Shown here piece after piece: positions 8,285 to 60,991 of a stretch of DNA of 64,000 nucleotides. Each line of letters opens with the position of its first letter. The first letter of the stretch is position 1. The position numbers and the translations under genes were made by a program. This DNA comes from Candidatus Saccharimonadota bacterium. GTDB taxonomy: Bacteria; Patescibacteriota; Saccharimonadia; Saccharimonadales; UBA10212. Location of the stretch: contig JACDFN010000002.1 in NCBI GenBank assembly GCA_013815775.1, positions 717-64,716 of the forward strand. The letters run 5' to 3'. The notes under the pieces are model-generated. The model ran no database searches and was not told the DNA's origin. It saw only the letters and a program-made list of their open reading frames with translations.

Positions 8285-9052
8285 ATGGCTAACGTTGAGG
8301 TCGACATAAAGCAACTTTTAGAAGCTGGCGCACACTTTGGACACAAAAGTAGTCGTTGGCACCCCAAGATGGCTCCTTACATACACAGTAAGCGGGCTGG
8401 AAATCATATTATTGACTTGACTAAAACCGTAGAAGCATTGGATAAAGCATTAGCTTTTTTGACTCAGATAACTGGTGAAGGGAAGCAAGTTTTATTAGTT
8501 AGCACTAAACGCCAAGCCCAACAAAAGGTAAAAGACGTTGCCCAAGCTACAAACATGCCATATGTAACCCAGCGTTGGCTCGGGGGCATGATGACAAATC
8601 AAGCAACCATTGGTGGTCGCATTAAGCATTTAAAAGATCTTGAGAGCCGTATGATAAGCGGCGAACTAGCGGCTAAGTACAGTAAGCTCGAATTACAGCG
8701 TTTTTCTGAAGAAATTGAAGAGATGAATCATATTTACGGTGGCGTGAAAGATATGCCCGCCAAACTAGGGGCTATGTTTGTGGTGGATATGATGAACGAC
8801 ATCAACGCAGTTCGCGAAGGTCGTAAACTAGGTATTCCAGTCGTAGCCTTAGTCGATACTAATGCCGACCCTTCATTGGTCGATTATCCTATTCCCTCAA
8901 ACGATGATGCTACAAAGACGATTAATTTAATTTTAGATTACGTGCAGCAGGCTATTAACGTTGGCAAAACTAAAGCTGATAAAAGTCCTATAAAGAGCGA
9001 GGAAGTTGATGCAAAGCCCGAACCTGTAACTAAGGCTAAAAAAGGGGAGTAA
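8285..9052 (+). CDS. rpsB: 30S ribosomal protein S2
   Basis: LLEAGAHFGHKSSRWHPKM and typical S2 sequence throughout. Lies in the rpsB-tsf pair. Confidence 0.97.
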   Translation: MANVEVDIKQLLEAGAHFGHKSSRWHPKMAPYIHSKRAGNHIIDLTKTVEALDKALAFLTQITGEGKQVLLVSTKRQAQQKVKDVAQATNMPYVTQRWLGGMMTNQATIGGRIKHLKDLESRMISGELAAKYSKLELQRFSEEIEEMNHIYGGVKDMPAKLGAMFVVDMMNDINAVREGRKLGIPVVALVDTNADPSLVDYPIPSNDDATKTINLILDYVQQAINVGKTKADKSPIKSEEVDAKPEPVTKAKKGE

Positions 9053-9053
9053 A

Positions 9054-9653
9054 ATGGCTAGTATTTCCTTAGAGGAAATTAAGCGACTACGTGAACTAAC
9101 CGGTGTGGGTATTACAGAAGCAAAACGAGCACTAGTAGAGAATAGCGGTGATTTTGACAAAGCCTTGGCAGCTATGAGAAAGAAAGGGCTCACCAAAGCT
9201 GAAAAACGGTCCGAGCGCGAGGCCCGTTCCGGACTTATTGGTGGGTATGTACACGATGGTCGAATTGGAGTTTTACTAGAAGTTAATTGTGAGACAGATT
9301 TTGTCGCTAAAACCGATGAATTTAAAGATCTGGTTAAGGATATATCGTTACACGTGGCTGCTTCGGCGCCTGTATATATAAATGATCAGGATATTCCTTC
9401 AGAAGACCGTAAACAGATGGAAAAAGAATTCAGCGAAAAAGTAAAGTCCGAGGGTAAACCAGATAATATGGTGCCCCAAATTGTTGAAGGTATGGTTAAA
9501 AAATACTTCGCTGAAAAATGCTTGCTCTCTCAACCATTTATTAAGAATCCAGAAATAAACGTCGGGGGGTATATAAAAGAGCACATTGCTAAACTAGGTG
9601 AGAATATTTTAGTGCGAAGGTTTACGCGCATTGTACTTGGTGAAGTAACGTAG
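9054..9653 (+). CDS. tsf: Elongation factor Ts (short form, 199 aa)
   Basis: N-terminal UBA-like segment IKRLRELTGVGITEAKRAL, plus LLEVNCETDFVAKT. Confidence 0.95.
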   Translation: MASISLEEIKRLRELTGVGITEAKRALVENSGDFDKALAAMRKKGLTKAEKRSEREARSGLIGGYVHDGRIGVLLEVNCETDFVAKTDEFKDLVKDISLHVAASAPVYINDQDIPSEDRKQMEKEFSEKVKSEGKPDNMVPQIVEGMVKKYFAEKCLLSQPFIKNPEINVGGYIKEHIAKLGENILVRRFTRIVLGEVT

Positions 9654-9810
9654 AATTACTTTACTTGTTAAGTAATTAATAAAAATTAAAATACGGCGAG
9701 TGAATGGATATACCATTCAAATTCCCGCCGCAATCCGGCAGGCGGTACTGGCGGACTAATATTGTCCGTTTTCCTCGCCTGCCGGCTTCTAGCTTTGAAG
9801 GGGTCAGTCT

Positions 9811-9930
9811 TCAGGGGTTTTCAGCCCGTTTGATACAGGCGGCCACAAAGCCAACACCCCAGACTGCGATGACCATGAAGGCCAACAACCCAATGAAAAC
9901 ACCTGCCGGTGAAATCGAAAGGCCTCTCAT
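9811..9930 (-). CDS. Hydrophobic micro-protein C (39 aa)
   Basis: The ATG overlaps the stop of B in an ATGA junction, consistent with translational coupling. Translation MRGLSISPAGVFIGLLAFMVIAVWGVGFVAACIKRAENP. Confidence 0.4.
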   Translation of the reverse strand: MRGLSISPAGVFIGLLAFMVIAVWGVGFVAACIKRAENP

Positions 9931-10067
9931 TGGCGCCCAGAAAGGTTGGCTTCAGAAAACCCCGGAACCCCGGAGTTGAGTCCCCTAAGGATACCCCTAA
10001 AGGCAACCAGGACGATCAACGGCAAAACGACGACTAGCAATACAGTGATGAAAGCGACTACCGTCAC
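9927..10067 (-). CDS. Hydrophobic micro-protein B (46 aa, GTG start)
   Basis: GTG 10067 is preceded by AGAAAGGGG. Translation VTVVAFITVLLVVVLPLIVLVAFRGILRGLNSGVPGFSEANLSGRQ. Same frame as A, 6 codons after its stop. Confidence 0.35.
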   Translation of the reverse strand: MTVVAFITVLLVVVLPLIVLVAFRGILRGLNSGVPGFSEANLSGRQ

Positions 10068-10085
10068 GGTTTTCAGCCCCTTTCT

Positions 10086-10205
10086 TTACTCAAGTAGGTT
10101 GTTCATGATGCCATCGGCTTGATGGCAGAACAGCTTGAATCCAGGCACCTGAGCTGCACTGATCAGCAGAAGCAGAGCGCCTACTAAAATCTCTTCCCAA
10201 GGCAT
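10086..10205 (-). CDS. Hydrophobic micro-protein A (39 aa), first of three tandem small ORFs
   Basis: ATG 10205 has AGGAGG 4 nt upstream. Translation MPWEEILVGALLLLISAAQVPGFKLFCHQADGIMNNLLE contains one TM-like segment. Located in the GC-rich tsf-frr insert. Confidence 0.4.
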   Translation of the reverse strand: MPWEEILVGALLLLISAAQVPGFKLFCHQADGIMNNLLE

Positions 10206-10374
10206 TTTGCCTCCTGGTTTGATTGTTGGCTGGTATATCGTCAAACGTCTTCTTCTCGGAAGACAAATCAAAGAACAAGTTGACTCAAGTAAGCAGTACT
10301 TTCTTAGTGAACTAGTGTGCCGATTATATATTAAAACGCTTAAACTTACGATTGTCGTTTAATGTTCTATAATA

Positions 10375-10944
10375 ATGGCTATGGAACTAAATCAATCAGT
10401 AGAGCAAACAAAGCAAAAGTTGAGCGCAGCTACCGAACATTTTAAGCATGAGATTGGCAAAATCCGAACCGGAAGGGCGCATCCAGGAATGCTGGACGGC
10501 ATATCGGTGGAGGTGTATGGTCAGCAAATGCCGCTAAAAGCAGTGGCTAGCATTACTGCGCCGGAGGCTCAACTTCTCCAGATTACACCATTTGATGCCG
10601 CCAATCTGCAGGCTATTTCTGACTCTATTAGAAAGAACCCAACACTTGGATTAAACCCGGCGGATGATGGACGGGTCGTGCGCATATCTATTCCATCCCT
10701 AACCACCGAGACTCGGCAGCAGATGGTCAAAGTTCTAAATTCCAAAGAGGAAGAGACATTTATAACTGCTCGGCAGATACGCCATGACATATTTCATCAA
10801 GTAGAACAAGCTGAAAAGTCAAAGAAAATCGGCAAAGATGAACGCCTACGTTTCGAAAAGCAAGTCGATGAGCTTATGACTAAACAAAAGACAGAAGTTG
10901 AGACTTTAAGAGCAAATAAAGAACGGGAAATACTAACGGTCTAA
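10375..10944 (+). CDS. frr: Ribosome recycling factor
   Basis: IGKIRTGRAHPGMLDGISVEVYG and typical RRF sequence throughout. A second in-frame ATG at 10381 may be the true, leaderless start. Confidence 0.96.
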   Translation: MAMELNQSVEQTKQKLSAATEHFKHEIGKIRTGRAHPGMLDGISVEVYGQQMPLKAVASITAPEAQLLQITPFDAANLQAISDSIRKNPTLGLNPADDGRVVRISIPSLTTETRQQMVKVLNSKEEETFITARQIRHDIFHQVEQAEKSKKIGKDERLRFEKQVDELMTKQKTEVETLRANKEREILTV

Positions 10945-10975
10945 CTCCACCCAGGCTGGTATACTAAATTACGAC

Positions 10976-12145
10976 ATGCAGTTACTATTATTTGTCTTGG
11001 GATTTTTACTGTTTATTGGACTTGTGCTCATACACGAATGGGGACACTACATTGCTGCCCGTAGAAACGGTGTGGTAGTGGAAGAGTTTGGTCTTGGCTT
11101 TCCACCAAGAGCCTGGGGAAAAAAGTTAAAGGACGGAATGGTGCTGAGCCTAAATTGGCTACCGTTGGGCGGGTTCGTCAAACTTAAAGGAGAGTCAGAC
11201 TCAGATAAACGCAAGGGTAGTTTTGGTGCTGCTAGTTTGCCAGCAAAAACCCAGATTATGCTGGCCGGGGTAACCATGAATCTTATTGCCGGGCTATTAA
11301 TCCTAACTATCTTAGCTTTGGTTGGATTACCTAAACTTATCGATAATCAGTTTACGGTAGCTAGTGACACTAAAATCTCTCAACAATCAGTAGCAGCGGG
11401 GTTTGTTGAGCCGGGCTCTCCGGCAGATAAGGCCGGTTTAACTAGCCGCGATTCGATAAAACAAATAACCAGTCCTAAAGGTACATTAATAATTACATCC
11501 ACCGAGCAGCTTAAAGCGGCCACGAAAAGTCTTGAGGGCCAAAAAGTACAAATTACCTACGAGCATAGAGGGCAGGAGTTCAAAAAAGATGCTACGTTAT
11601 TGTCCAGGAATGAGGTACAAAAAAGCTTATCCACAGATAACCCCAAAGGACATTTAGGCGTTGTTCCATTAGAGCTTCAAGTTAGGCGATCCACTTGGAG
11701 CGCACCGGTGGTTGCCCTTGGCTTCACTAAGCAACTTGTAGTCCTTACCATGCAAGGCTTAGGCAAAGCTCTTGGCGGTCTTGGTTCAACAATAGCCGGA
11801 TTATTAACAGGGAATCAAACCGCTAGGGAGCAAGGCCAAGCTAAAGCTAGCTCGCAGGTGGGTGGACCGGTAGCAATTATGGCAGTTCTTTGGGGTGGTG
11901 GCTCGCTTGGCATTAATTTCATATTAATGATTATTGCAGTGCTATCACTCACCTTAGCTCTAATTAACATATTACCGATCCCAGCCCTAGATGGTGGTAG
12001 ACTAGTTGTGACTCTGGTTTCTCGTAAACTACTGAAGAACCCTATTAGCCGTGCTGCGGAGGAACGTATCCACGGTACCGGCATGGCTGTGCTTCTAGCC
12101 CTTGTTCTGCTAATTACTATCGTAGATGTCAAACGATTCTTCTGA
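10976..12145 (+). CDS. rseP: RseP-type site-2 zinc metalloprotease (M50) with PDZ domain
   Basis: HEWGHY (HExxH), a PDZ segment (GSPADKAGLTSRD), and NILPIPALDGG (NxxPxxxLDG). Confidence 0.93.
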   Translation: MQLLLFVLGFLLFIGLVLIHEWGHYIAARRNGVVVEEFGLGFPPRAWGKKLKDGMVLSLNWLPLGGFVKLKGESDSDKRKGSFGAASLPAKTQIMLAGVTMNLIAGLLILTILALVGLPKLIDNQFTVASDTKISQQSVAAGFVEPGSPADKAGLTSRDSIKQITSPKGTLIITSTEQLKAATKSLEGQKVQITYEHRGQEFKKDATLLSRNEVQKSLSTDNPKGHLGVVPLELQVRRSTWSAPVVALGFTKQLVVLTMQGLGKALGGLGSTIAGLLTGNQTAREQGQAKASSQVGGPVAIMAVLWGGGSLGINFILMIIAVLSLTLALINILPIPALDGGRLVVTLVSRKLLKNPISRAAEERIHGTGMAVLLALVLLITIVDVKRFF

Positions 12146-42907: not shown

Positions 42908-42987
42908 GGCAGGGAGTCCTTAACAAGTCAAGCTATTCCTAAATTCTTAAAATGGAGTAGGATAGGAGTATTAAAGGGGAGGTTGAA

Positions 42988-43363
42988 ATGTTAAGTAACA
43001 ATAACGCGTATGCCATGCTGCCGGTAAGCAATATGGACGAGGCAAAAAAAATTCTATTCGGTAACTCTAGGTTTAGAGGAAACCGGCTCAGACCCCACCG
43101 GTGGAGGTGTATTTTACAAAACCGGGGAAACTAAGGTTATGGTCTACGAATCCCAGTACGCCGGTACTAATAAAGGCACAGCCGCCTCATGGACTGTAGA
43201 TAATGTGGGTGCCGTGGCCAAATGGTTGAAAGAAAAGGGTGTAAGTTTCGAGCATTACGAATTTCCGGGCAGCTCACGAGAAGGGGACGTACATATTATG
43301 GGCAATATACACGCTGCCTGGTTTAAGAACCCCTCTGGCAATATCCTGGGTCTAAATAACTAG
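42988..43363 (+). pseudogene. VOC/glyoxalase-family gene interrupted by a +1 frameshift in an A8 run
   Basis: AAGGGGAGG Shine-Dalgarno and ATG 42988. Frame 1 gives MLSNNNAYAMLPVSNMDEAKK. After the A8 tract (43044-43051) the sequence continues in the next frame as FYSVTLGLEETGSDPTGGGVFYKTGETKVMVYE...GNILGLNN. Removing one A gives a 124-aa VOC protein. Confidence 0.75.
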
Positions 43364-43380
43364 AAAGCTCTTGCTTTGAG

Positions 43381-43800
43381 TTAGATGAGCATAGCCCCGA
43401 GGATGGCGCCGGCAATGGTTGCGTTAAGTACGGTGTAACCCGCATCAATCAACCAAAGCTTCAAGCTTTTTTGAGCGAAAAGATATTGGGTAGCCAGCAT
43501 CATTGCCTGGAAGGAAACGCCAATCATAAGGCCGGCTTTAGCGCCGCTGCCAGCATCTAGCTCGACTGGGTTGTAGTTAAGCAAGCCGGCAAGTACGAAA
43601 ACTGTGACTAAGTTTGTCAGAAATGTCAGACCGAAAGTCATCGCCATATTTGAGTCTTTTAAATCTTTATCGGAGAGTCCGACCTCTTTCTACCATGGTT
43701 TACCTACCAGTGGGCCGTACCACAAAAAACCGACTATAAAGGGTACAAGGGCCGCAATTAATACTGCCCAGAGACTGATATCACTGAACTCGAAAATCAT
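43381..43800 (-). pseudogene. DUF1761-family membrane protein gene with an in-frame TAG at codon 37
   Basis: AAGGAG Shine-Dalgarno and ATG 43800. MIFEFSDISLWAVLIAALVPFIVGFLWYGPLVGKPW is followed by TAG (43690-43692), then in the same frame KEVGLSDKDLKDSNMAMTFGL.... The total length of 139 codons fits DUF1761. Confidence 0.7.
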
Positions 43801-43973
43801 TTCTTTCTCCTTTTAATTACTGCTAATTATGATTTTACTCGGTTTGCAACAGCTGTAAACAGCTTTGCGGTTAAAAACATAAGAATTACCTCGAAAAAGA
43901 GTTGATAGCGGTAAGTTTTATGCACACACATCTTCGATATTGGGTTTACTGACATCGTCTCAATCTAATAAGC

Positions 43974-47979: not shown

Positions 47980-48488
47980 TATAGAACTGGATAATAAATT
48001 GCACATTTACAATTTGGCAGGCAAGCAAAAAACTCCAAAAACTTTAGCCGATAAGGTAAATAAGCAGGCGCGGTACGCGAAAAAGCGGATTCGGATTTAT
48101 TCCAAAAAGCGCCATGCGAGAAAAACTCCAGGTTTTGTCTCATTACCAACTCGAGGTTAGCTATTTGGCAGTCAGCCGGTGGGTCTGGGGCACCATCGTT
48201 AACAAAACCCTTGTACTTTTTTCAATCGTAACACCTCCCAAAACTCCACCTCACAAAAAAGTCTCTCACAAGAACTTTAGGAACTCTATAGGCGAGAAGG
48301 GAATCAAAAATTTCCAACAAATCGCGCCTTTTTAATAGAGTTCCCCAAACTCTGAAATTTCTTTTCAGGGTAAACAAAAACAAAAACAACTCATAAAAAC
48401 AAAAAGCTGACTGCTAATTAGGTGACCTTGTAAAAACAAAAAAATTCACCGCCGAAGTTAAAATAACTTTGGCAAGGCAGGGAATAAT

Positions 48489-54061: not shown

Positions 54062-55163
54062 AGGACTTAATCCGGCTGCAAAGGTTATATATATTGGCTT
54101 AAAAACTGAAAAGGTAAAAGGACTGGAAAGTCGCTACAGAATTTTCGATGAGGTTCATTACATACGTTCTGGTAAATTCCGTCGCTATCATGGCCAGAAT
54201 ATTCTAGTTCGTATAACTGATATTAAAACATTGGCATTGAATATTCTTGATTTTTTTAAAGTTTGGGCCGGAATATTTAGAGCTATAAAGATACTACAGC
54301 TGGTTAAACCGGACGTTGTTTTTTCGAAGGGTGGGTTCGTGGCCGTTCCAGTAGGGATTGCAGCTAAATTATTAAAAATACCAATAGTGACTCATGACTC
54401 CGATATTATACCGGGGCTTGCTAACCGCATTATCGGTCGTTGGGCTAAGGTACATGCTACGGGCATGCCTCCTGAAAATTACAATTACCCAGCAGGTACT
54501 ATGCGATATACCGGTATACCTGTGGACGAGCGTCTTGAGCCAATCACAGAAACTCTAAAAAATAATTATAAAAAACAAATCGGTATTAGCCCAGACGAAG
54601 TCCTGCTGCTTGTTGGTGGGGCAGGACTGGGTTCTCGCGATGTAAATAGCTTGGTTCTAAAAATTGCTTCTCAACTTTTAAATAAGATAAAAAAGCTCAG
54701 GATAATTCATATAACGGGTGAAGCACACAAAAAGGCTGTATCTGAAGCCTATGGGCAGTTGCTTAGTGAAGACCAAATACAAAACATAGAGGTACTGGGA
54801 TTTTCTGATGACTTTTTTAAATACACCGGTGCGGCTGACTTAATTATAAGTAGGGCAGGAGCTACTATAATCGCCGAGCTAGCTATTCAAAGAAAAGCTG
54901 CTGTATTAATTCCTGCACCATTCTTAACAGGCGGCCATCAGGTTAAAAACGCCCAACTACTCAAAAATATTAGGGCTGCAGAGATTGTTGACAATGACGT
55001 TACTCCGGACACATTACTTAACACCGTAAGCATTCTTTTAACAGACAATCAAAAGAGAAGCATGTTTGAAAACAACATTGCATCTATTTCTATGCCGAAT
55101 GCCGCTAAAAATTTAGCGGATGTTTTACTTCAACTGTCTGAGAACAATAAGGCCCAGGGTTAA
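53946..55163 (+). CDS. murG: UDP-GlcNAc:lipid I GlcNAc transferase MurG
   Basis: IVLTGGGSGGHITPLLSLA and a C-terminal GT28 domain (ISRAGATIIAELA, QVKNA). Start taken at ATG 53946. The ORF track starts at 53913. Confidence 0.88.
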   Translation: MSLNPETTAPKTLKPAIVLTGGGSGGHITPLLSLALALKGLNPAAKVIYIGLKTEKVKGLESRYRIFDEVHYIRSGKFRRYHGQNILVRITDIKTLALNILDFFKVWAGIFRAIKILQLVKPDVVFSKGGFVAVPVGIAAKLLKIPIVTHDSDIIPGLANRIIGRWAKVHATGMPPENYNYPAGTMRYTGIPVDERLEPITETLKNNYKKQIGISPDEVLLLVGGAGLGSRDVNSLVLKIASQLLNKIKKLRIIHITGEAHKKAVSEAYGQLLSEDQIQNIEVLGFSDDFFKYTGAADLIISRAGATIIAELAIQRKAAVLIPAPFLTGGHQVKNAQLLKNIRAAEIVDNDVTPDTLLNTVSILLTDNQKRSMFENNIASISMPNAAKNLADVLLQLSENNKAQG

Positions 55164-55165
55164 CA

Positions 55166-60260: not shown

Positions 60261-60991
60261 TTCCTCAAGAGCAGGGGAGGCAGAGTTCAATCCCTACGAG
60301 CTTTTTATCTTTAGAGCTCTTAACTGGAGCAAAAGAAGAGTCAGCAATTAGGACGAAAGAACAAACAGAAACTAAGCTCCCTATTCTCTTCTGCTGTTCG
60401 TATTTTGTTCATTTTATAAATAGACTAATAGTAAAAGGGAAATAAGTATACTGCTACAATTCTATCAAAAGTCAAATATGTCTGAAAATAGAGAAGGTAA
60501 GTAAAAACATATGAAGATATGAAACAGCTAAAAATCAAATAGCGACATAGCTAACTGTGGAAAACTATATACTTTTCACGGAGCTATGATTAAATGCAAG
60601 AACAGCAGTAGATAACCAATGTATAAACGGATGAGTAGTCATTCGTAGAACACTGGATGCGGCCTTAACAGCATAACGCGTAAAAACTCCCCTGTTAGAG
60701 GAGTCCTATTAGTCATCTAGTTAAAGCATATATGTAGTCGCAAAATATACATTGTGCGACATAGTCTTACCTTCCTTTTAGCTTCCTATTTATAACCCCC
60801 CGCCGTTTTATTCATAGATTTTATATAATTTTTTTGTTTTGTTATTATTTTCTTCTGCTTTCCTGCTCGCTTGATTTTAATTCTTTTGAATCATCATGTT
60901 GCTTCGATCTAGCTAAGCCCAATATACTTGTTCGTAAAATGTTCACATTTACGCAAAACCAATTTAGTGATGTTTATTTGAGCTACGAAGA

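What the first reader, a model, noticed from the sequence alone, without database searches (positions are those of the whole stretch)
9654..10374. GC-rich insert at the usual pyrH position between tsf and frr, carrying three coupled hydrophobic micro-ORFs on the opposite strand
The widely conserved rpsB-tsf-pyrH-frr order is broken here. Instead of pyrH there are about 720 bp with no ORF of 100 aa or longer. Composition is clearly different: my hand count gives about 58% G+C for 9721-9780 against roughly 40% in the flanks.
The minus strand holds three consecutive small ORFs, each with one TM-like segment.
- A (10205-10086, 39 aa) has AGGAGG 4 nt upstream.
- B (10067-9927, 46 aa) starts at GTG after AGAAAGGGG.
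- C (9930-9811, 39 aa) starts in an ATGA overlap with the stop of B.
A GC-rich inverted repeat (CCGCC...GGCGG, about 9726-9745) lies just downstream of C. A GTCTTC/GAAGAC hairpin (10247-10264) lies upstream of A.
The element could be a horizontally acquired micro-operon, for example from a high-GC host. It could encode small membrane peptides such as toxin-like, bacteriocin or immunity-like, or regulatory peptides. It could also be the wreck of a larger membrane-protein gene.
Basis: partly seen in the sequence, partly recalled or inferred. Interest (0 to 1): 0.62.

Follow-up and report, generated by a model that had tools for sequence, protein, structure and literature searches.

The report
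Variable membrane micro-gene slot, tsf–frr
Between two housekeeping genes of an uncultured Saccharibacteria genome lies a fast-changing slot that here probably encodes three tiny membrane peptides on the opposite strand and ends in conserved hairpins; it is real and unannotated, but it is not a replaced pyrH gene and its function is unknown.

Summary
The 721-bp tsf–frr gap has a 53% G+C core against 43% for the window. It has no ORF of 100 aa or more. The minus strand carries three consecutive single-helix ORFs (A, B, C) with the stated ribosome-binding sites and the ATGA overlap. This arrangement appeared in 0 of 3000 shuffles.

The pyrH framing is misleading. pyrH lies between tsf and frr in none of the Saccharibacteria loci examined.

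Of 41 loci, 15 have tsf and frr nearly adjacent and 26 have a long gap. In 25 of those 26 the gap carries minus-strand membrane ORFs of very variable content. Most also have GC-rich hairpins next to tsf that occur nowhere else in the sequence searched.

Only the hairpins and ORF C have counterparts in the closest relative. C is 45% identical to helix 1 of an 83-aa ORF there, and substitutions fall mainly at third codon positions.

A and B are orphans. They share one reading frame, split by a single TAA. Third-position G+C is 0.55–0.60 against 0.39 for the window's genes.

GenBank instead annotates an antisense 91-aa ORF, which is probably a shadow of ORF C.

Best reading: a lineage-specific, fast-evolving membrane micro-protein operon, possibly partly decayed. 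Interest is moderate to low.

The parts
9054..9653 (+). tsf (elongation factor Ts, 199 aa), the left border of the slot
   Evidence: Pfam EF_TS, E = 2.9e-32. Identical to NCBI MBA3757585.1.
9654..9677 (+). AT-rich hairpin AATTACTTTAC/GTTAAGTAATT directly after the tsf stop. It is the counterpart of the tsf terminator hairpin of relatives.
   Evidence: Inverted repeat I19 and fold. The same hairpin is followed by a T-run in L136, L138 and L008. In the window the T-run is degenerate.
9694..9733 (-). Hairpin H2 (CGGCGAG-TGAATGG...CCATTCA-...CGCCG). On the minus strand it is followed by AUUUUAAUUUUUAUU, so it is the likely intrinsic terminator of the A-B-C transcript.
   Evidence: Fold, z = -6.6 for 9654-9812 on the minus strand. 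Conserved with L136, with compensatory changes GAATGG/CCATTC to GAGTGG/CCACTC. Covariance model R1 matches 9693-9726 at 19 bits; this sequence was part of the training set.
9732..9788 (.). Hairpin H3: outer stem CCGGCAGGCG/CGCCTGCCGG enclosing the inner hairpin GGCGGAC..GTCCG. It carries the GTACT and TTTTCCTC motifs shared with hairpins of relatives.
   Evidence: Inverted repeat I6, 13 nt, 92% complementary. Folds. Conserved in L136 and L145. Motifs shared with L004, L005 and L074.
9811..9930 (-). ORF C, 39 aa, one transmembrane helix. Its start overlaps B's stop (ATGA). It is the only ORF here with a demonstrable homologue.
   Evidence: 45% identity over 31 aa to L136 4667-4918(-), z = 9.7-10.4 against shuffles. 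Differences by codon position are 9/9/22, with pS 0.72 and pN 0.32.
9927..10067 (-). ORF B, 46 aa, GTG start, one transmembrane helix, with the Shine-Dalgarno-like AAAGGGG 9 nt upstream
   Evidence: T at codon position 2 is 0.51 and G at position 1 is 0.40. No significant homologue. It weakly resembles pilin N-terminal helices (z = 5.1 to the L018 pilin) but gives no TIGR02532 hit.
10068..10083 (-). 16-nt direct repeat AAAGGGGCTGAAAACC. Its second copy lies at 9816-9831, at the end of C, with a spacing of 252 nt.
   Evidence: Repeat D5, 15 of 16 identical. A repeat this good appears in 0.2% of shuffles.
10086..10205 (-). ORF A, 39 aa, ATG start, AGGAGG 4 nt upstream. It is in the same frame as B, separated by TAA at 10088-10086.
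   Evidence: plus frame arithmetic (10205-10067 = 138). No homologue.
10247..10264 (-). GTCTTC/GAAGAC hairpin in the presumed 5' leader of A
   Evidence: Sequence. Predicted in the minimum-energy fold. Its function was not tested.
10265..10374 (.). AT-rich divergent control region. It holds a TATATA box (about 10325-10332) conserved in L136, L139 and L140, and TATAAT at 10368-10373 directly before frr.
   Evidence: Sequences. Promoter roles are inferred. The simple scan found no consensus sigma-70 site here.
10375..10944 (+). frr (ribosome recycling factor), the right border of the slot
   Evidence: Pfam RRF, E = 1.9e-48. NCBI MBA3757588.1 starts at 10381.
9704..9979 (+). Plus-strand 91-aa ORF annotated in GenBank as a hypothetical protein. 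It is probably an antisense shadow of C plus the hairpins.
   Evidence: Exact match to MBA3757586.1 / H0X09_01860. Flat GC1/2/3 of 0.53/0.54/0.55. G at position 1 is 0.23, and 0.19 in the hairpin part. Its two halves match two separate places 600 nt apart in L136.

Best explanation
The gap is one instance of a variable slot that many Saccharimonadales carry between tsf and frr.

The slot is a small module read on the strand opposite to tsf and frr. Next to frr lies an AT-rich divergent control region. One to several fast-evolving membrane-protein genes follow. GC-rich hairpins next to the tsf stop close the module.

In this genome the module most likely makes one minus-strand transcript that starts upstream of 10265 and carries a leader hairpin.
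- A is translated from a strong AGGAGG site.
- B is translated from an AAAGGGG site at a GTG start.
- C is translated by coupling through the ATGA overlap.
- Transcription ends at hairpin H2 (9733-9694) and its U-rich tail.

The products would be three single-pass membrane micro-proteins of 39, 46 and 39 aa.

Shown:
- The ORF pattern is non-random.
- The slot and its strand bias recur in relatives.
- The hairpins are conserved and specific to this locus.
- C has a homologue with a coding-type substitution pattern.

Inferred:
- Transcription, translation and membrane insertion.
- That A and B are functional.
- The biological role. My best guess is an accessory cell-envelope function, because the same slot in relatives holds pilin-like mini-proteins and a phosphatidyltransferase.
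For: - Three consecutive TM-ORFs on one strand occurred in 0 of 3000 shuffles.
- A, B and C have gene-like G at codon position 1 (0.33-0.42) and TM-like T at position 2 (0.42-0.51). The overlapping plus-strand ORFs do not.
- C matches L136 4667-4918(-) at z about 10. Substitutions by codon position are 9/9/22, with pS 0.72 and pN 0.32. The start position is equivalent in both genomes.
- Of 41 unique Saccharibacteria loci, 26 have long gaps. 25 of those 26 carry minus-strand TM-ORFs, and only 6 carry any plus-strand TM-ORF.
- Recurring minus-strand families in the slot: fam1 (L004, L090, L074, L145), fam2 (L072, L065, L008), a PIP-synthase-like protein in L002 and L011 (E = 5.6e-37), and pilin-like mini-ORFs in L073 and L009 (TIGR02532: L073 20.8 bits, above the 16.3 cutoff; L009 14.1 bits, below it).
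- A gene caller placed minus-strand genes in the slot of L136, L142 and L145.
- Hairpin model R1 matched only inside the tsf-frr gap, nearly always in the same orientation (14 of 15 hits), and nowhere else in 403 kb.
- The hairpin region folds at z = -6.6 and has a U-rich tail on the minus strand.
- This is the only GC-rich intergenic region in the window.
Against: - A and B have no homologue anywhere. No match appeared among 5.8 billion proteins or in the related loci. The closest relative, L136 (Frr 83% identical), has different ORFs in their place.
- Codon usage and GC3 are atypical for this genome.
- A and B are one frame interrupted by a stop. C is shorter than its two-helix homologue. 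Both features are compatible with decay.
- The coding-type substitution pattern of C appears equally in the wobble-matched antisense frame (pS 0.79, pN 0.30). NCBI's pipeline chose the plus-strand ORF.
- No consensus promoter was found for the minus strand.
- There are no expression data.
Confidence: 0.55

Rival explanations
1. Decaying remnant. The slot once held one or two larger membrane-protein genes, such as a fam1-type three-helix protein or a two-helix protein like L136's 83-aa ORF. A, B and C would be the pieces left after a nonsense mutation, a frameshift and an internal duplication or deletion. They would no longer be functional.
For: - A and B share a frame separated by a single TAA.
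- B and C are offset by one base.
- C covers only helix 1 of its 83-aa homologue.
- The 16-nt repeat 252 nt apart points to a recent internal rearrangement.
- The A-stop-B read-through scores 5.5 bits against the fam1 profile, a score reached by 2.2% of shuffles.
- Codon usage is atypical.
- A and B have no conserved counterpart.
Against: - Each piece has kept a start codon with a plausible ribosome-binding site or a coupling overlap.
- Three intact TM-ORFs never appeared in shuffles.
- The same small coupled-ORF layout recurs in relatives: L004, L005, L009, L073, L139, and L142 with a 4-nt overlap.
- The fam1 match is weak and not corrected for multiple tests.
Confidence: 0.25
2. Type I toxin-antitoxin-like module. 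One or more of the small hydrophobic peptides would be a membrane toxin. Its mRNA would be controlled by an RNA from the opposite strand that overlaps its 3' end at the conserved hairpins, either tsf read-through or a small RNA starting near 9693.
For: - The peptides are 39-46 aa, each with one helix.
- Convergent transcripts would overlap across two strongly folding hairpins.
- A promoter-like site lies on the plus strand at 9665-9692, just upstream of the hairpins.
- The hairpins are better conserved than the ORFs.
- The mRNA region folds somewhat better than shuffles, at z about -2.8.
Against: - No toxin family matched in Pfam, NCBIfam or PADLOC.
- The plus-strand promoter-like site is not conserved in L136 or other relatives, and one such site is fewer than chance gives.
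- The same slot holds 100-230-aa proteins, including an enzyme, in relatives.
- There is no second copy in 64 kb.
Confidence: 0.08
3. The plus-strand 91-aa ORF (9704-9979), as annotated in GenBank, is the real gene, and the minus-strand ORFs are its shadows.
For: - It is annotated as MBA3757586.1.
- It is the longest ORF in the gap.
- Its frame shows pS 0.79 and pN 0.30 against L136 over the stretch antisense to C.
- An ORF opens at the equivalent position in the hairpin of L136.
Against: - GC1/2/3 is flat and G at position 1 is low.
- Its first 30 codons are the conserved hairpins. There the window and L136 differ by two compensating 1-nt indels and by stem-preserving double changes. That pattern indicates constraint on structure, not on protein.
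- Its two halves map 600 nt apart in L136, in different ORFs.
- BLOSUM62 similarity by hand count is lower: 56 against 75 for the minus frame over the same DNA.
- It explains only part of the GC-rich core.
- The T/K/M/N-rich composition is what the wobble-matched antisense of a helix-coding frame produces (inference).
Confidence: 0.07
4. The whole GC-rich core is a structured non-coding RNA, and the ORFs are incidental.
For: - The region is GC-rich in an AT-rich genome.
- Folding z-scores are about -3 on both strands for 9805-10340, and -5.4 to -6.6 for the hairpin part.
Against: - No Rfam family matched at E of 1 or below in the window or in nine relatives. No tRNA or tmRNA was found.
- Beyond the roughly 100-nt hairpin block there is no nucleotide conservation, even with the closest relative.
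- The ORF pattern and codon-position signals argue for coding.
Confidence: 0.05

Closest known systems
Bacterial small membrane proteins encoded by unannotated short ORFs (for example the AcrZ, KdpF and CydX class of micro-proteins). Comparison from general knowledge.
   Same: The products are under 50 aa with a single transmembrane helix. Annotation pipelines miss them. They are translated from short, coupled ORFs.
   Different: There is no sequence relationship to any named family. Turnover is extreme. They sit in a dedicated variable slot and are not next to a partner complex gene.
CPR-enriched, poorly annotated membrane protein families (Meheust et al. 2019, PMC6744442)
   Same: That study found that 76 of 106 CPR-enriched families have at least one TM helix and poor annotation. 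It also notes that small, fast-evolving proteins escape clustering. The slot's contents fit that description, and some are pilin-like.
   Different: The families described there are widespread. A, B and C are orphans confined to one or two genomes.
Type I toxin-antitoxin loci with convergent, 3'-overlapping RNAs (txpA/RatA, bsrG/SR4, fst/RNAII). Comparison from general knowledge.
   Same: Both have small hydrophobic peptides. Both have a convergent arrangement with shared or back-to-back terminator hairpins, and the RNA elements are better conserved than the peptides.
   Different: No antitoxin promoter is conserved. There are no family hits. Relatives carry larger proteins and an enzyme in the same slot. 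The locus is single-copy.
Canonical rpsB-tsf-pyrH-frr gene cluster of most bacteria
   Same: rpsB, tsf and frr are in the usual order and orientation.
   Different: pyrH is absent here in all Saccharibacteria examined. It is not replaced in this genome alone.

Membership tests
pyrH (UMP kinase) remnant | Detectable similarity of any frame of the gap to PyrH | tested here: not met
   tblastn with four PyrH sequences taken from non-Saccharibacteria loci gave no hit in the window at E ≤ 1. None of the Saccharibacteria loci was hit either.
Slot family of ORF C (L136 83-aa two-helix ORF) | Significant sequence similarity at the same locus and on the same strand | tested here: met
   45% identity over 31 aa, z = 9.7-10.4 against composition-preserving shuffles, with third-position-biased substitutions. 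C lacks the second helix.
Slot family fam1 (three-helix proteins of L004, L090, L074, L145) | Match of the A-stop-B(-C) read-through to the family profile | tested here: inconclusive
   AB scores 5.5 bits, and 2.2% of shuffles score as high. ABC scores -0.8 bits.
Type IV pilin / prepilin N-terminal domain (TIGR02532, PF07963) | G(-1), F(+1) and E(+5) cleavage/methylation motif, plus an HMM hit | tested here: not met
   B has no NCBIfam or Pfam hit at E ≤ 0.1. The motif residues are absent from B and from its in-frame upstream sequence. Only the hydrophobic helix resembles pilins (z = 5.1 to L018). L073's 41-aa ORF in the same slot does meet the family cutoff.
Type I toxin-antitoxin system | Small hydrophobic peptide of 60 aa or less | tested here: met
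   A, B and C are 39, 46 and 39 aa, each with one predicted helix.
Type I toxin-antitoxin system | Antisense or overlapping small RNA with its own conserved promoter | tested here: inconclusive
   One promoter-like site lies at 9665-9692(+) but is not conserved in relatives. Overlap of convergent transcripts is only inferred.
Type I toxin-antitoxin system | Membership in a described toxin family, or demonstrated toxicity | tested here: not met
   No hit in Pfam, NCBIfam, PADLOC or PHROGs. Toxicity cannot be tested here.
Integron gene cassette (attC hairpin) | One attC hairpin with R/L boxes per cassette, and an integrase nearby | tested here: not met
   There is a single hairpin block per locus, not one per ORF. 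The sequence shows no GTTRRRY-type box. No integrase was seen among the called neighbouring genes.
Any Rfam RNA family, tRNA or tmRNA | Covariance-model match | tested here: not met
   No relevant hit at E ≤ 1 in 9000-11000 (only three chance-level, sub-threshold matches to unrelated families). No hit at gathering score in the window. No consistent hit at the hairpins of nine relatives. ARAGORN found nothing.

The most novel reading that the evidence does not exclude
The tsf-frr slot could be a dedicated diversification locus of Saccharimonadales. In this reading, a conserved hairpin element acts as a recombination or processing signal, or as an antisense control RNA. Short membrane or surface-peptide genes next to it would be exchanged, duplicated and reinvented at high rate. 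Such turnover could tune contact with host bacteria or resistance to phage. A, B and C would then be newly born or newly shuffled members.
Probability: 0.1. Interest if true: 0.7.

Novelty: new member of a known kind. Interest (0 to 1): 0.33.

Why it matters
If A, B and C are translated, they are unannotated membrane micro-proteins in a candidate-phyla-radiation bacterium. The public record instead annotates an antisense ORF at this place, which is probably wrong.

At the clade level, the gene order is otherwise highly conserved in at least one major Saccharibacteria group (McLean et al. 2020, PMC7427843). Yet this one junction holds very different membrane-protein sets in different genomes and is marked by a locus-specific hairpin. 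That makes it a convenient natural test case for how ultra-small episymbionts gain, lose and possibly invent envelope proteins.

The finding does not bear on nucleotide metabolism. The absence of pyrH at this position is a trait of the lineage.

Tried and rejected
- Known RNA (RNase P, tmRNA, SRP RNA, riboswitch): Rfam and ARAGORN found nothing.
- Degraded pyrH: no similarity.
- Homologues of A, B and C:
  - The concatenated query against 5.8 billion proteins gave nothing at E ≤ 10.
  - C against 1.84 billion representatives gave only leucine-rich-repeat proteins whose 'LSTLPAGVFDGLTAL' repeat resembles C by chance.
  - L136's 83-aa ORF as query gave nothing.
- Pfam, NCBIfam, PADLOC and PHROGs: no hits for A, B or C.
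- Exact look-ups of window proteins in the contig index failed.
- Presence/absence polymorphism between strains: L142 looked 'filled' and L143/L144 'empty'. Alignment showed they are the same sequence on shorter contigs, so I withdrew the idea.
- Mobile element with target-site duplication: only a 7-nt ATTAAAA repeat flanks the module (9685-9691 and 10330-10336). That is too weak in AT-rich DNA.
- Integron cassette: rejected (see the membership test).
- Simple ancestor model, in which C and B were once one two-helix gene later permuted by tandem duplication: the 16-nt repeat and its 252-nt spacing fit. That spacing equals the 83 codons plus stop of L136's ORF. However, the reading frames at the two repeat copies differ by one base, so the model needs an extra indel and remains unproven.
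- Literature searches found no description of this locus.
Full report
**What is in the sequence**

The window comes from an uncultured Saccharibacteria (TM7) genome. Its Tsf and Frr proteins match NCBI records MBA3757585.1 and MBA3757588.1, and all close relatives are Saccharimonadales genomes assembled from metagenomes.

rpsB (8285-9052), tsf (9054-9653), frr (10375-10944), an M50 protease and a CAAX protease lie on the plus strand. The 721 bp between tsf and frr contain no ORF of 100 aa or more.

- G+C of 9721-9780 is 0.583.
- The core 9694-10205 is 0.527, against 0.426 for the window.
- This is the highest-GC 300-nt stretch of the window.
- It is the only intergenic gap over 250 nt that is GC-rich. 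The others are 0.35-0.44.

Three consecutive non-overlapping helix-containing ORFs on one strand never appeared in 3000 dinucleotide-preserving shuffles of 9790-10215.

I add two details.
- A and B are in the same frame, separated only by TAA at 10088-10086.
- A 16-nt direct repeat (15 of 16 identical) lies just upstream of B and at the end of C, 252 nt apart. A repeat this good appears in 0.2% of shuffles.

**The pyrH framing does not apply to this lineage**

PyrH sequences from non-Saccharibacteria loci hit nothing in the window or in any Saccharibacteria locus. They hit only Spirochaetota, Gemmatimonadota and similar loci, where a gap of about 710 bp between tsf and frr is pyrH.

I examined 41 unique Saccharibacteria loci that carry both genes.
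- 15 have tsf and frr less than 300 bp apart, and often less than 100 bp.
- 26 have gaps of 475-2773 bp.
- These include close relatives with the same flanking genes. L137 and L138 (Frr 76% identical) have gaps of 75 and 96 bp. L136 (83%), L139, L140 and L145 have gaps of 538-942 bp.

**What fills the long gaps**

In 25 of the 26 long gaps there is at least one minus-strand ORF with a transmembrane helix. Only 6 have any such ORF on the plus strand.

The contents differ greatly between genomes.
- A three-helix family of 104-157 aa occurs in L004, L090, L074 and L145.
- A second family of 138-162 aa occurs in L072, L065 and L008.
- A phosphatidylinositol-phosphate-synthase-like enzyme occurs in L002 and L011 (E = 5.6e-37).
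- Pilin-like mini-ORFs of 41 and 48 aa occur in L073 and L009. L073's matches the prepilin N-terminal model above its cutoff; L009's hit is below cutoff.
- Many loci also carry chains of 32-57-aa single-helix ORFs, some overlapping by 4 nt as B and C do.

Independent gene calls placed minus-strand genes in the slot of L136, L142 and L145. The gap is therefore a recurrent, strand-biased, fast-changing module. It is not an accident of this genome.

**The conserved part is a hairpin block next to tsf**

I aligned the gap with the closest relative, L136. Only the first 140 nt or so after the tsf stop align, at about 70% identity. That stretch holds three elements.
- An AT-rich hairpin lies at the tsf stop. 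In relatives it is followed by a T-run.
- Hairpin H2 (9694-9733) has stem-preserving double changes: GAATGG/CCATTC in the window against GAGTGG/CCACTC in L136.
- Hairpin H3 (9732-9788) has an inner hairpin.

The block folds far better than shuffles on both strands, with z = -6.6 on the minus strand and -5.4 on the plus strand.

Related hairpins of the form GGGGGAG...CTC-NA-CCCC lie at the same place in most relatives that carry the module. Some share the GTACT and TTTTCCTC motifs of H3.

I built a covariance model from 13 of these hairpins.
- It matched only inside tsf-frr gaps in 403 kb, nearly always in the same orientation (14 of 15 hits).
- It found one extra instance, in L061.
- It found nothing in genomes with the short gap and nothing elsewhere in the 64-kb window.
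- The pair counts show some covariation: 12 cells changed on both sides against 6.1 expected.
- The alignment is heterogeneous, and the window's own score is modest (19 bits, and that sequence was in the training set).

Rfam has no matching family.

On the minus strand H2 is followed by AUUUUAAUUUUUAUU, so it is a plausible intrinsic terminator for a minus-strand transcript. In other loci a separate hairpin preceded by an A-run plays that part. Why the stem sequence and a bulge are conserved across genera remains unexplained.

**Are A, B and C genes?**

The evidence for C is reasonably good.
- Residues 4-34 match the first helix of an uncalled 83-aa two-helix minus-strand ORF in L136. Identity is 45% and z is about 10 against shuffles.
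- The 93 aligned nucleotides differ at codon positions 1/2/3 in 9/9/22 places, with pS 0.72 and pN 0.32.
- The two start codons sit at equivalent positions, and L136 has an AAGGAG site there.

There is a caveat. The antisense frame whose third positions coincide shows the same signal (pS 0.79, pN 0.30). NCBI annotates exactly that plus-strand ORF, 9704-9979, as hypothetical protein MBA3757586.1.

I consider it a shadow, for five reasons.
- Its G+C by codon position is flat, and G at position 1 is low (0.23, and 0.19 over the hairpins). A, B and C have 0.33-0.42.
- Its first 30 codons are the hairpins. There the two genomes differ by compensating 1-nt indels and stem-preserving changes.
- Its two halves map 600 nt apart, in different ORFs, in L136.
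- The amino-acid similarity is lower than in the minus frame: 56 against 75 BLOSUM62 units by hand count over the same DNA.
- All recognisable genes of the slot in relatives are on the minus strand.

A and B have no detectable relative. B's helix weakly resembles pilin N-terminal helices but lacks the defining motif and any model hit.

GC3 of the three ORFs is 0.55-0.60, above the maximum of the window's 49 long ORFs (0.478). The codon-adaptation-like index is 0.64-0.71, below their minimum of 0.74. So the ORFs are either recent arrivals from GC-richer relatives, young, or not under normal translational selection. Several relatives carrying the module have 50-57% G+C.

**Signs of rearrangement or decay**

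- A and B are one frame with a stop.
- C lacks the second helix of its homologue.
- B weakly resembles that second helix.
- The 16-nt repeat marks the end of C and the start of B, at a spacing equal to the length of L136's 83-codon ORF plus its stop.

A tandem duplication followed by deletions could produce this layout. The frames at the two repeat copies differ by one base, however, so the model is unproven. The A-stop-B read-through gives a weak match to the three-helix family profile: 5.5 bits, reached by 2.2% of shuffles. I therefore keep 'partly decayed' as the main rival.

**Comparison with known systems**

No toxin, bacteriocin, immunity, holin, defence or phage family matches.

The layout resembles type I toxin-antitoxin loci in two ways. 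The peptides are small and hydrophobic, and convergent transcripts would overlap at hairpins. The only plus-strand promoter-like site is not conserved, though, and the slot carries ordinary larger proteins in relatives. I give that reading low weight.

The contents fit what Meheust et al. (PMC6744442) describe for CPR bacteria: many poorly annotated membrane families, pilus-related functions, and small fast-evolving proteins that escape clustering. McLean et al. (PMC7427843) report high synteny across group G1 Saccharibacteria genomes. Against that background, a junction with this much turnover stands out.

**Verdict**

The interpretation needs correcting in three ways.
- This is not a pyrH replacement. 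It is one instance of a clade-wide variable slot.
- It was probably not imported from a distant high-GC host.
- The conserved functional core is the hairpin block plus, here, ORF C.

The ORFs are most likely a minus-strand micro-protein operon, possibly partly broken, of unknown envelope-related function. Interest is moderate to low for this window alone. It is somewhat higher for the slot as a clade-level phenomenon.

Noticed in passing
window 9704-9979 (+): GenBank annotates this plus-strand 91-aa ORF as hypothetical protein MBA3757586.1 (H0X09_01860). It overlaps the conserved hairpins and runs antisense to ORF C, so it is probably a mis-call. Accession MBA3757587.1 (one number missing between this ORF and frr; accessions assumed sequential) may be a second annotated product in the gap; none of the eight candidate sequences I looked up matched it.
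   Followed up: partly
window 10366-10383: A perfect TATAAT (10368-10373) lies 2 nt before the first ATG of frr and 7 nt before the NCBI-annotated ATG at 10381, with no Shine-Dalgarno sequence. frr may therefore be translated from a leaderless mRNA here and in L136. L139 and L140 have a normal GGAG site.
   Followed up: no
L136 3594-4058, and other loci (L005, L009, L066, L073, L074, L011, L053): Tsf comes in two length classes among close relatives, 199 aa and about 154 aa with an internal deletion. L136 is closest to the window in RpsB (85%), L31 (87%) and Frr (83%), yet it has the short Tsf (64%).
   Followed up: no
L073 3087-3212 (-) and L009 3269-3415 (-): These are 41- and 48-aa ORFs in the same slot. 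They consist of little more than a prepilin-type N-terminal helix, and both end in GWW. L073's ORF scores above the TIGR02532 cutoff. They may be minimal pilin-like peptides.
   Followed up: partly
L074 1017-1079 (-): A sub-threshold match to the type III hammerhead ribozyme: 37.5 bits against a gathering score of 48.5, E = 1.8e-4.
   Followed up: no
window 9964-9984 (-): A terminator-like stem-loop followed by GGGGTTTTCT lies inside ORF B, upstream of C. It could attenuate transcription before C, or it could be chance: the scan found 3 such sites against 2.5 expected.
   Followed up: no
window 9685-9691 and 10330-10336: A 7-nt direct repeat ATTAAAA flanks the GC-rich module on both sides. It is too short and AT-rich to count as a target-site duplication.
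   Followed up: no
L142 1-900: Here the hairpins and two coupled minus-strand TM-ORFs (74 and 38 aa, 4-nt overlap) lie upstream of frr, but the upstream gene does not look like tsf (its C-terminal sequence differs; not searched). The module therefore stays with frr when synteny breaks.
   Followed up: partly
window 42908-43973, 54062-55165, 60261-60991, 47980-48488: Four other stretches of 500-1100 nt have no ORF of 100 aa or more, at G+C 0.35-0.44. I did not examine them.
   Followed up: no
window 9811-9930 (-) against P0121 and P0122: ORF C's N-terminus (GLSISPAGVFIGLLAF) resembles the repeat 'NSLSTLPAGVFDGLTAL' of giant leucine-rich-repeat proteins. This gave misleading E-values down to 1.9e-7 in the representative search.
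   Followed up: yes
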